Below are positions 10,791-48,019 of a stretch of DNA of 64,000 nucleotides, piece by piece. The notes under the pieces are model-generated. The model had not been told where the DNA came from, searched no databases, and saw only the letters and a program-made list of their open reading frames with translations. The translations under genes and the position numbers were made by a program. The number at the start of each line of letters is the position of its first letter. Position 1 is the stretch's first letter. Source of the DNA: Octopus vulgaris (lineage: Eukaryota); contig OX597814.1 of assembly GCA_951406725.2 (NCBI GenBank), positions 219,604,001-219,668,000 on the forward strand, read 5' to 3'.

Positions 10791-12490
10791 AGTTCACCTA
10801 TCGCACACTCAATACATCGTGGTTCACTTATCGCACACTCAGTACATCGTGGTTCACTTATTGCACACTCAGTACATCGTGGTACACTTATTGCACACTC
10901 AGTACATCGTGGTTCACTTATCGCACACTCAGTACATCGTGGTTCACTTATTGCACACTCAATACATCGTGGTTCACTTATCGCACACTCAGTACATCGT
11001 GGTTCACTTATCGCACACTCAGTACATCGTGGTTCACTTATTGCACACTCAATACATCGTGGTTCACTTATCGCACACTCAGTACATCGTGGTTCACTTA
11101 TCGCACACTCAGTACATCGTGGTTCACTTATCGCGCACTCAGTACATCGTGGTTCACTTATCGCACACTCAGTACATCGTGGTTCACTTATCGCACACTC
11201 AGTACATCGTGGTTCACTTATTGCACACTCAGTACATCGTGGTTCACTTATCGCACACTCAGTACATCGTGGTTCACTTATCGCACACTCAGTACATCGT
11301 GGTTCACTTATTGCACACTCAGTACATCGTGGTTCACTTATCGCACACTCAGTACATCGTGGTTCACTTATCGCGCACTCAATACATCGTGGTTCACTTA
11401 TCGCACACTCAGTACATCGTTGTTCACTTATCGCACACTCAGTACATCGTGGTTCACTTATTGCACACTCAGTACATCGTGGTACACTTATTGCACACTC
11501 AGTACATCGTGGTTCACTTATTGCACACTCAGTACATCGTGGTTCACTTATCGCACACTCAGTACATCGTGGTTCACTTATCGCACACTCAGTACATCGT
11601 GGTTCACTTATCGCACACTCAGTACATCGTGGTTCACTTATCGCACACTCAGTACATCGTGGTTCACTTATTGCACACTCAATACATCGTGGTTCACTTA
11701 TCGCACACTCAGTACATCGTTGGTTCACTTATCGCACACTCAGTACATCGTGGTTCACTTATCGCACACCACTCAGTACATCGTGGTTCACTTATCGCAC
11801 ACTCAGTACATCGTGGTTCACTTATCGCACACTCAGTACATCGTGGTTCACTTATTGCACACTCAGTACATCGTGGTTCACATATCGCACACTTAGTACA
11901 TCGTGGTTCACTTATTGCACACTCAGTACATCGTGGTACACTTATTGCACACTCAGTACATCGTGGTTCACTTATCGTACACTCAGTACATCGTGGTTCA
12001 CTTATCGCACACTCAGTACATCGTGGTTCACTTATCGCACACTCAGTACATCGTGGTTCACTTATCGCACACTCAGTACATCGTGGTTCACTTATCGCAC
12101 ACTCAGTACATCGTGGTTCACTTATATCGCACACTCAGTACATCGTGGTTCACTTATCGCACACTCAGTACATCGTGGTTCACATATCGCACACTCAGTA
12201 CATCGTGGTTCACATATCGCACACTCAGTACATCGTGGTTCACTTATCGCACACTCAGTACATCGTGGTTCACTTATCGCACACTCAGTACATCGTGGTT
12301 CACTTATCGCACACTCAGTACATCGTGGTTCACATATCGCACACTCAGTACATCGTGGTTCACATATCGCACACTTAGTACATCGTGGTTCACTTATCGC
12401 ACACTTAGTACATCGTGGTTCACATATCGCACACTCAGTACATCGTGGTTCACATATCGCACACTCAGTACATATCGTGCACTCTGTACA
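10791..12490. repeat. 30-bp tandem satellite/minisatellite, ~56 copies of tcgcacactcagtacatcgtggttcactta
   Basis: continuous head-to-tail units with few substitutions, no spacers. Confidence 0.97.
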
Positions 12491-24904: not shown

Positions 24905-25435
24905 TCATCATCATCATCATCATCGTTTAACGTCCGTTTTCCGCGCTAGCACAGGTTGGACGGTTCGACCAGGGTCTGGGAAGCCAGAAGGCTGCACCAG
25001 GCTCCAGTCTGATCTGGCAGTGTTTCTACAGCTGGATGCCCTTCCTAACGCCAACCACTCCGCGAGTGTAGTGGGTGCTTTTTACATGCCACTGGCACAG
25101 GTGCCAGGGGAGTCTGGCATCGGCCACAATCGGTTGGAGCTTTTAACATGCCACCGGCACGGAGCCAGTCAAGGTGGCGCTGGCATCATCCACGTTCGAA
25201 TGGTGCTTTTTATGTGCCACCGGCACAGAAGCCAGTCGAGGCGGCACTGGCAACGGCCACGTTCGGATAGTGCTTTTTATGTGCCACCGGCACAGGTATC
25301 ACAACTACTATTTCCATTGATATTTGTTTCGATGTTCATGTACATGCACTTGACTCAACAGGTCTCCTCAAGCACAGCGAGATGTTCCGGGATCCAAGGT
25401 ACTTTGAATGGGCAGGGGCTATGCAGAACTGGTGG
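24905..25435 (-). mobile_element. Family C retroposon, long copy including upstream unique region
   Basis: (CAT)n tail, four units, continues into a 5' segment shared with 43670 and the window start. Confidence 0.88.
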
Positions 25436-31012: not shown

Positions 31013-31403
31013 GACTGGCCTCCGTGCTGAGGGCACGTAACAAACACCATCCGAGCGTGGCCATCCGCCAGCCTTGGCACCTGTGTCGGTGGCACATAAA
31101 AAACACCATCCGAGCGTGGCCGTCTGCCAGCCTCGTCTGGCACCTGTGTCGGTGGCACATAAAATACACCATCCGAGCGTGGCCGTCTGCCAGCCTCGTC
31201 TGGCACCTGTGTCGGTGGCACATAAAATCACCCACTACACTCTCGGAGTGGTTGGCGTTAGGAAGGGCATCCAGCTGTAGAAACACTGCCACATCTGACT
31301 GGCCTGGTGCAGCCTTCGGGCTTCCCAGATCCCCAGTTGAACCGTCCAACCCATGCTAGCATGGAAAGCGGACGTTAAACGATGATGATGATGATGATGA
31401 TGT
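31013..31403 (+). mobile_element. Family C retroposon with 63-bp units
   Basis: ggcacat at 31091, 31154, 31217; (GAT)n tail. Confidence 0.9.
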
Positions 31404-43669: not shown

Positions 43670-44100
43670 CAGAATCGAAATCGATCAATGGAAATTGCAG
43701 ATGTGTTACCAGTGCCGGTGGCATGTAAGAGAACCTTCCGTTTCGCGACCGTTGCCAGCACCGCCCCGACTGGCCTCGTGCCAATGGCACGTAAAAAGCA
43801 CCATCCGTTCGTGTCCACTGCCAGCCTCGCCTGGCCCTCGTGCCGGTGGCACATAAAAAGCACCATCCATTCGTGGCCGTTTGCCAGCTCTGTCTGGCAC
43901 CTGTACGGGTGGCGCGTAAAAAGCACCCACTACACTCTCGGAGTGGTTGGCGTTAGGAAGGGTATCCAGCCGTAGAAACACTGCCAGATATGACTGGGCC
44001 TGATGAAGCCTTCTGGCTTCCCAGACCCCAGTAGAACCGTCCAACCCATGCTAGCATGGAAAACGGACGCTAAACAATGATGATGATGAATGATGATGAC
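43670..44100 (+). mobile_element. Family C retroposon
   Basis: four divergent units, aggaagggtatccagcc, (GAT)n tail. Confidence 0.88.
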
Positions 44101-45856: not shown

Positions 45857-46250
45857 TATCATTATCATTGTTCAACATCTGTTTTCCATGTTGGGATGGG
45901 TTGGACAGTTTGACAGGAACTGGCCAAGTGGAGAGCTGCCCAGGTTCCATGTCTGTCTTGGCATGGTTTCTATAGCTGGATGCCCTTCCTAATTCCAGCC
46001 ACTTTACTGAGTGTTGTGAATGCTTTTTACATGCCACTGACACAAGTACATTTTATGAGGCACTGGCACTTGCAAGACAAAGACTTCTTGGCTGGGAGAG
46101 GGAGTCGGGGCACGGCCATAAAGGACATGCTTTTATGTGTGAATGGCTACGATTTTACTTAGCTTGATGTTTTTTCTCAAGTACAGCAAATTGCCACAAG
46201 TCCCGGTCATTTCCTCAGTGAGGGTCAGTGCCTGAAGATCCTTTCTCATA
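45857..46250 (-). mobile_element. Degenerate family C copy
   Basis: ttttccatg..gggttggacag, gctggatgcccttcctaa, tttttacatgccact. Confidence 0.65.
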
Positions 46251-47105: not shown

Positions 47106-47674
47106 TGGCCGTTGCCAGCGCCGCCTCGACTAGCTTCTGTGCCGGTGGCACATAAAAACCACCATTTGAACGTGGCCGTTGCCAGTGCCGCCTTGGCTGG
47201 CTTCTGTGCCGGTGGCACATAAAAAGCACCATCCGAACGTGGCCGTTGCCAGCGCCGCCTCGACTGGCTTCTGTGCCGGTGGCACATAAAAAGCACCATC
47301 CGAACGTGGCCGTTGCCAGCGCCGCCTCGACTGGCTTCTGTGCCGGTGGCACATAAAAAGCACCATCCGAACGTGGCCGTTGCCAGCGCCGCCTTGGCTG
47401 GCTTCCGTGCCAGTGGCACGTTAAAAGCTCCAACCGATCGTGGCCGATGCCAGACTCCCCTGGCACCTGTGCAGGTGGCTCATAAAAAGCACCCACTACA
47501 CTCACGGAGTGGTTGGCGTTAGGAAGGGCATCCAGCTGTAGAAACTCTGCCAGATCAGATTGGAGCCTGGTGCAGCCCCTGGCTTCCCAGACCCCCGGTT
47601 TGAACTGTCCAAACCGCGCTAGCGCGGAAAACGGACGTTAAACGATGACGATGATGATGATGATGATGATGATG
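47106..47674 (+). mobile_element. Family C retroposon with five 67-bp units and one 62-bp unit
   Basis: ggcac at 47147, 47214, 47281, 47348, 47415, then 47477; (GAT)n tail. Confidence 0.92.
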
Positions 47675-47756: not shown

Positions 47757-48004
47757 ATAGGGCTTAGAGGTGCAATGAGATTGTAGAATAGGGCTTAGAG
47801 GTGCAATGAGATTGTAGAATAGGGCTTAGAGGTGCAATGAGATTGTAGAATAGGGCTTAGAGGTGCAATGAGATTGTAGAATAGGGCTTAGAGGTGCAAT
47901 GAGATTGTAGAATAGGGCTTAGAGGTGCAATGAGATTGCAGAATAGGGCTTAGAGGTGCAATGAGATTGTAGAATAGGGCTTAGAGGTGCAATGAGATTG
48001 TAGA
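47757..48004. repeat. 31-bp tandem repeat x8 (atagggcttagaggtgcaatgagattgtaga)
   Basis: eight units, one substitution. Confidence 0.97.
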
Positions 48005-48019
48005 ATTAGCTGGGCAGAA

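What the first reader, a model, noticed from the sequence alone, without database searches (positions are those of the whole stretch)
47106..47540. Tandemly amplified structured RNA module in family C: candidate undescribed ribozyme or pseudoknot
Seen: every C copy carries 2-6 units of 62-67 bp. Each unit is stem (c/t)gtgc-cggtg-gcac(g/a), then an A-rich linker taaaaag, then cacc/ccatccga complementary to the loop (H-type pseudoknot), then (a/g)cgt, then a second hairpin gccag-loop-ctggc. That second stem is kept while the loop changes (cgccgcctcga, cctcgt, cctcgc, actccc). The units lie just upstream of aggaagggcatcc, which I recall as an RTE 5'-UTR-type motif. Established: RTE-clade elements can carry HDV-like or twister ribozymes near the 5' end. 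The order P1-UAAA-pseudoknot-GCGU-stem-GU (clearest at 31084-31150) echoes pistol ribozymes, but the pistol P2 and AG junction are missing, so it is not a canonical pistol. The apparent C-G to T-A covariation could be simple CpG decay. Unit number and type vary per copy, so the array is remodelled during retroposition.
Basis: partly seen in the sequence, partly recalled or inferred. Interest (0 to 1): 0.75.

Follow-up and report, generated by a model that had tools for sequence, protein, structure and literature searches.

The report
Repeated RNA pseudoknot in retrotransposon tail
This is a chain of short repeats at the tail end of a very common octopus jumping gene; each repeat starts with a small predicted RNA knot that related elements in other animals carry near their start codon, so it is likely a relocated binding or translation signal rather than a self-cutting RNA.

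Summary
The array is real (67-bp period, 5.9 copies), but it lies in the 3' UTR of a ~4.8-kb RTE-type LINE (APE, RT, PHD finger), not near a 5' end; window copies are 5'-truncated tails. Each unit opens with a 26-nt H-type pseudoknot (stem 1 4-5 bp, stem 2 4-5 bp, A-rich loop 3). The same 26-mer occurs in other animals' elements with compensatory, non-CpG changes in stem 1, and an older octopus family repeats only this 26-mer. The downstream aggaagggcatcc motif is a genuine RTE 5'-UTR motif elsewhere: 25-35 nt before an in-frame ATG in 7 of 8 endonuclease-linked loci. Octopus LINEs therefore likely took over a 5'-UTR-plus-tail cassette at their 3' end and amplified part of it by slippage. A ribozyme is not supported: no Rfam ribozyme hit, no pistol topology, 98 truncation points spread across the unit, and 12 of 12 intact-ORF copies run from ORF into the array. 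Some master units break the pseudoknot, so extra copies look partly redundant. Function untested; ribosome or RTE-protein docking is my best guess.

The parts
47106..47674 (+). 5'-truncated copy of an RTE-type LINE 3' end (array + terminal module + GAT tail)
   Evidence: Same sequence follows the stop codon of full-length copies; break at unit position 36
47106..47493 (+). Tandem array: partial unit, four 67-bp units, one 62-bp unit, terminal core
   Evidence: TRF; unit parse
47138..47163 (+). Predicted H-type pseudoknot core 1
   Evidence: covariation
47205..47230 (+). Predicted H-type pseudoknot core 2 (intact)
47272..47297 (+). Predicted H-type pseudoknot core 3 (intact)
47339..47364 (+). 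Predicted H-type pseudoknot core 4 (intact)
47406..47431 (+). Core 5, stem 2 broken in this copy
47468..47493 (+). Terminal core, one stem 1 mismatch in this copy
47248..47268 (+). Example of the second hairpin (GCCAG / variable loop / CTGGC); others at 47114, 47181, 47315, 47382, 47449
47512..47536 (+). Conserved RTE motif, a 5'-UTR element in other animals
   Evidence: 67 exact pattern matches in metagenome contigs; endonuclease ORF downstream in 8 of 67, ATG spacing
47598..47643 (+). Predicted 3'-terminal stem-loop, likely the RT recognition site
   Evidence: fold (z -1.49); a similar tail follows the motif in many other-animal loci
47644..47674 (+). (GAT)n tail
31021..31400 (+). Copy of the youngest subfamily (63-bp units)
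24925..25400 (-). Copy with complete array and upstream unique 3' UTR
43710..44080 (+). Copy of another subfamily with complete array

Best explanation
This is a minisatellite in the 3' UTR of an abundant octopus RTE-type LINE, built from a predicted 26-nt H-type pseudoknot that likely came from an RTE 5'-UTR module captured together with a new tail, and that likely serves as a non-catalytic binding signal. Shown: the 3'-UTR position, the repeat structure, the cross-species covariation, and the 5'-UTR position of the neighbouring motif in other animals. Inferred: a bipartite (5'-UTR fragment + tail) non-autonomous element donated the 3' end by template switch; slippage between the unit's short internal repeats (TGGCAC, TGCCAG/TGCCGG) expands and contracts the array, in RT and in DNA; the terminal module would dock the RNA on the ribosome or on the RTE protein so that new RT captures the tail, while the extra units are mostly redundant.
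For: Position: RT C-terminus and stop lie just upstream of the array (4 loci translated; 12 of 12 long-ORF copies, 11 of them ending in motif and tail); no motif or core near the ATG in 29 correctly oriented 5' regions of 30 (one, L415, has them 1.2 kb upstream, not resolved). Structure: on 12 cores, 93.5% of cells pair, 3 of 5 stem 1 pairs change on both sides, including U-A/A-U and C-G/A-U transversions; 0 of 500 shuffles reach the score; slid controls are lower. Descriptor finds an H-type fold in 10 of 55 upstream regions against 1-5 in ten shuffles. An older octopus family repeats exactly the 26-nt core. Origin: endonuclease ORF follows the motif in 8 of 67 metagenome loci, in-frame ATG 25-35 nt after it in 7 of 8; L322 has core + motif + ATG and 56% endonuclease identity to the octopus LINE; motif + tail also follow a tRNA-like head in L436 (read by eye). 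Bipartite RTE elements are described in PMC5786205.
Against: Stem 2 shows only G-C/G-U changes, no double change; the 12 rows were picked by me and represent about three independent non-octopus lineages. Master units break the fold: stem 2 broken in 3 of 18 types, a C-A mismatch at stem 1 pair 5 is common in another family and some duplications cut through the core. Only 1 of 9 endonuclease-linked loci has the core, so it is not required for the 5'-UTR motif. An alternative nested fold competes with hairpin 2. No donor element with the module in a 5' UTR was found in this genome. No functional data.
Confidence: 0.62

Rival explanations
1. The whole array, terminal core included, is a neutral relic: the pseudoknot worked in an ancestral 5' UTR, has no role in the octopus 3' UTR, and is multiplied only because this UTR is duplication-prone.
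For: Duplications of ~100-190 bp that ignore unit boundaries and truncate the core occur in intact copies; fixed stem-breaking variants; DNA-level indel.
Against: Stems stay intact while loops diverge across 18 unit types; two age classes amplify units that begin and end with a whole core; terminal cores keep stem 2 in 174 of 208 parsed copies against 292 of 436 internal (confounded by CpG decay).
Confidence: 0.22
2. Each unit (or dimer) is a new or degenerate self-cleaving ribozyme.
For: The slot just upstream of the motif holds a twister-P1 match in L345 (E 3.8e-7, below gathering score); RTE elements are known to carry HDV-like and twister ribozymes at 5' ends (PMC6765202, PMC8501958); 7 of 98 breaks fall at one position (p 0.055).
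Against: No Rfam hit at gathering, no ribozyme at E up to 10 or in 7 full-length loci at E up to 0.1; no pistol topology in 5 arrays, no hammerhead or twister core word; breaks spread over all positions (best 4-nt window 13 of 98, p 0.29); 73 of 243 arrays are complete and continuous with the upstream UTR.
Confidence: 0.07
3. The cores are exonuclease-resistant (xrRNA-like) knots that protect the tail and yield short 3' RNAs.
For: Tandem compact pseudoknots in a 3' UTR resemble viral xrRNA arrangements (recalled, not from a call).
Against: No enrichment of 5' ends just upstream of the core; the 26-nt fold lacks a ring-forming junction by inspection.
Confidence: 0.07

Closest known systems
Bipartite RTE-derived elements and SINE bodies (Bov-A, CoeSINE4/5, Ceph-SINE 3' half; Kojima 2018, PMC5786205)
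   Same: An internal RTE 5'-UTR fragment joined to an RTE tail; conserved across distant animals; the Ceph/RTE-3_BF domain shown in the supplement opens with what reads by eye as the same H-type layout.
   Different: Here the cassette is the 3' UTR of an autonomous LINE and its first part is tandemly amplified; the motif was not found in that supplement; the paper gives no RNA structure in the parts read.
Pistol ribozyme (RF02679; Harris et al. 2015, PMC4604425)
   Same: Short P1 whose loop forms a pseudoknot, followed by an A-rich linker.
   Different: The loop partner follows the linker directly; no P2, no P3-GU-P2 junction; no Rfam match.
Twister and HDV-like ribozymes at RTE 5' ends (Perere-3, PMC8501958; review PMC6765202)
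   Same: Structured RNA tied to an RTE element; twister fills the same upstream slot in L345.
   Different: Those sit at the 5' end with target-site duplications at the cut; this array is 3' of the ORF and 5' ends are not phased.
LINE UTR monomer arrays (rodent L1 5' monomers; recalled) and 3' stem-loops of stringent LINEs (PMC3747384)
   Same: Variable-number repeats in a LINE UTR; terminal stem-loop before a microsatellite tail.
   Different: Array is 3', and its unit is a predicted pseudoknot rather than a promoter monomer.

Membership tests
Pistol ribozyme | P1 loop forms a pseudoknot | tested here: met
   (predicted)
Pistol ribozyme | [quoted passage not shown] | tested here: not met
   Own descriptor: 0 hits in 5 arrays (no positive control available); Rfam none at E up to 10
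Pistol ribozyme | Mg2+-dependent self-cleavage | not testable with these tools
   indirect only: unphased 5' ends
HDV-like ribozyme | Nested double pseudoknot with catalytic C in J4/2 | tested here: inconclusive
   Rfam none; own descriptor gave stray hits in 2 of 3 arrays and 0 of 12 relatives, so it had no working control
Twister ribozyme | Conserved L4 core and RF03160 match | tested here: not met
   core word absent; the model does detect L345 but not the arrays
Hammerhead ribozyme | CUGANGA core | tested here: not met
   0 on either strand in 2 elements
H-type pseudoknot | Stem 1 supported by compensatory change | tested here: met
   3 of 5 pairs
H-type pseudoknot | Stem 2 supported by compensatory change | tested here: inconclusive
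   95.8% paired, one-sided changes only; broken in 3 of 18 octopus unit types
RTE-clade LINE | Single ORF with AP endonuclease and RT | tested here: met
   1026-1059 aa open frames; RVT_1 and PHD; N-terminus 56% identical to a Pfam Exo_endo_phos domain
RTE-clade LINE | Microsatellite 3' tail | tested here: met
   (GAT)n
RTE-clade LINE | RT groups with RTE references in a tree | not tested
   no reference set; the clade label rests on architecture and recall
Bipartite RTE cassette | 5'-UTR-derived segment directly followed by an RTE tail | tested here: met
IRES-like element | Cap-independent initiation at a nearby AUG | not testable with these tools
   only fixed ATG spacing in relatives; no such ATG in the octopus 3' copy

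The most novel reading that the evidence does not exclude
RTE retrotransposons share an undescribed start-codon-proximal RNA module (small H-type pseudoknot plus a second conserved knot 25-35 nt before the AUG) that recruits ribosomes without a cap; the same 26-nt knot recurs in a dicistrovirus-like 5' UTR; octopus LINEs moved it to their 3' UTR and multimerised it as a ribosome-docking handle, which would also explain why RTE-dependent SINEs keep this piece of 5' UTR.
Probability: 0.2. Interest if true: 0.75.

Novelty: new variant of a known kind. Interest (0 to 1): 0.42.

Why it matters
Why RTE-dependent SINEs keep an internal piece of the LINE 5' UTR is left open in PMC5786205. A covarying pseudoknot in such a piece, with fixed spacing of the neighbouring motif to the start codon, gives a small testable RNA element. 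It also shows traffic in the reverse of the usual direction: an autonomous LINE apparently adopting a SINE-like bipartite end. With roughly 61 copies per Mb in the sampled DNA (58 in 0.944 Mb), the array is a major repeat of this genome. The single copy at 47106 is an ordinary dead insertion.

Tried and rejected
Rfam: nothing at gathering in the window; only chance-level non-ribozyme hits at E up to 10; microsatellite-driven miRNA hits in 7 full-length loci. HDV-like descriptor had no working control; I read L327 and L338 as possibly HDV-like by eye but could not confirm it. A mild breakpoint cluster in the first sample did not hold in the larger one (98 internal-unit breaks scored; 43 poor or other-family, 9 upstream, 8 edge arrays dropped, 12 terminal-unit breaks set aside). 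Pairing of the loop with the CCG after CACC (pistol-like register) was rejected: absent from terminal units. One genome search with a window copy returned nothing. Viral scans: L161 and L383 are chance matches in apparent coding DNA; two searches found nothing. RNA: no RNA holder listed; contigs cannot show ends. RTE-2_OV (PMC9115989, passages) has a microsatellite 3' UTR and is not described with this array. Literature searches found no description of this array or pseudoknot; Repbase/Dfam and subscription journals could not be searched, and Ruminski et al. 2011 was not held, so its RTE ribozyme sequences were not compared.

Full report
Observation. TRF reports a 67-bp array of 5.9 copies at 47106-47493. 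It holds six cores of the form stem-GGTG-stem-TAAAAAG-CACC and six GCCAG/CTGGC hairpins, then the aggaagggcatcc motif, a predicted terminal stem-loop and a (GAT)n tail. Related copies recur through the window, and 58 motif-ending arrays were found in 0.944 Mb of position-chosen DNA. The genome is 2.8 Gb and the LINE protein's best database hit is 78% identical to an Octopus bimaculoides RT, so the host is very likely an octopus.

What element it is. Long copies continue upstream into the C-terminus of a reverse transcriptase. Full-length copies are about 4.8 kb with a ~1.2-kb 5' UTR and one ORF with endonuclease, RT and a PHD finger. In 12 of 12 copies chosen for long open frames the array follows the stop codon, and 11 end in motif and tail. 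None of 29 correctly oriented 5' regions has the motif or core near the ATG. The array is thus a 3'-UTR minisatellite of an RTE-type LINE; the clade name rests on architecture, not on a tree.

Anatomy. Clustering 452 internal units gave 17 clusters of four or more, covering 311 units; with one added variant, 18 types were parsed. The inner four pairs of stem 1 and all five pairs of hairpin 2 are intact in 18 of 18; stem 2 in 15 of 18; the outer stem 1 pair in 13 of 18. The hairpin 2 loop has 14 variants. The youngest subfamily fixes a unit with stem 2 broken, and another family often has a C-A mismatch in stem 1. An older family repeats only the 26-nt core, 2 to 29 times. Nested folding energy is unremarkable.

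Relatives elsewhere. The motif matched 67 metagenome stretches. In 8 an endonuclease ORF follows, with an in-frame ATG 25-35 nt after the motif in 7 of 8, and a GCY word 8-19 nt downstream in 36 of 54 distinct loci against 12 of 54 in a control window, suggesting a second knot. A ninth endonuclease-linked locus came from 9 MAG stretches. In many other loci the motif is followed by an RTE tail, the bipartite layout described by Kojima 2018 (PMC5786205; parts 1-4 of 5 read, supplement searched by terms). The 26-nt core lies 42-46 nt upstream of the motif in 9 of 67 loci, about three lineages, including the 5'-UTR locus L322. On 12 hand-picked cores, stem 1 has 3 of 5 pairs changed on both sides, with non-CpG transversions; stem 2 varies only between G-C and G-U; 0 of 500 shuffles reach the pairing or covariation score, though 161 of 500 reach the count of doubly changed pairs. 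In L345 a twister-P1 match fills the same slot. A core matching L370 at 24 of 26 positions lies about 45 nt before ORF1 of a dicistrovirus-like contig; its stem 1 5' strand was not in the search pattern. It is one virus in two contigs and may be chance; a different pseudoknot is essential in the CrPV 5' IRES (PMC5587806, passages).

Ribozyme test. No Rfam ribozyme matches the arrays. Pistol needs P2 and a P3-GU-P2 junction (PMC4604425, passages); a descriptor found none in 5 arrays, without a positive control. For Perere-3, insertion ends sit at the twister cut (PMC8501958, passages); here 98 breaks spread over the unit, with at most 7 at one position (p 0.055) and 13 in any 4-nt window (p 0.29), and 73 of 243 arrays are complete. 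Efficient cleavage would also part the ORF from the tail. Slow or conditional cleavage is not excluded.

How the array changes. Copies of one young subfamily have 4-8 cores (24 complete arrays); deletions and duplications often join the short repeats inside the unit; some intact copies duplicate 100-190 bp across unit boundaries. A 40-bp indel between two copies of a duplicated locus shows DNA-level change. RT slippage is likely but was not separated from it.

Mechanism (inferred). An ancestral RTE carried core + motif before its AUG; a bipartite derivative joined it to the tail; an octopus LINE took this cassette as its 3' end by template switch, and has a different 5' UTR with a splice-acceptor-like site before the ATG. 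The retained terminal module would act as a binding handle for ribosome or RTE protein; extra units are under relaxed constraint. I put this at about 0.6 overall, the specific ribosome-docking role at about 0.2-0.25, a neutral relic at 0.22 and a ribozyme at 0.07.

Novelty. Eight literature searches (listings only, except the papers named) and three look-ups in earlier notes did not describe this array or knot; repeat databases were not searchable. PMC6765202, PMC3747384 and PMC9115989 were seen as passages. Verdict: a new variant of a known kind, interest 0.42.

Noticed in passing
L387-L413, just upstream of the ORF: Most of these octopus RTE copies have a pyrimidine tract and AG directly before the ATG, a splice-acceptor-like site; in some copies similarity seems to end there.
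   Followed up: no
L381:8584-8609 (-): The 26-nt core about 45 nt before ORF1 of a dicistrovirus-like contig (RdRP, helicase, CRPV capsid).
   Followed up: partly
L345:621-698 (-): Twister-P1 match abutting the RTE motif, followed by an internal part of an RTE ORF: looks like an internally deleted element.
   Followed up: partly
L327, L338, L312, L331, L433 upstream of the motif: Another recurring structured motif in the same slot; a descriptor finds a 12-bp H-type knot in L338; no Rfam hit for the four scanned.
   Followed up: partly
L163-L191: Very young subfamily: 39 copies on one chromosome score identically over 144 bp; many open frames above 1000 aa genome-wide.
   Followed up: partly
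L085 and L086: Two loci on different chromosomes 99.2% identical over 10 kb, flanks included: a segmental duplication or larger mobile unit.
   Followed up: partly
window 10792-12473 and 47757-48006: Unrelated minisatellites of 30 bp (56 copies) and 31 bp (8 copies).
   Followed up: no
L428-L436: Animal-type retroelement sequence inside prokaryotic genome bins, probably contamination.
   Followed up: no
window 45870-46044 (-): Copy of an older family with a single core.
   Followed up: partly
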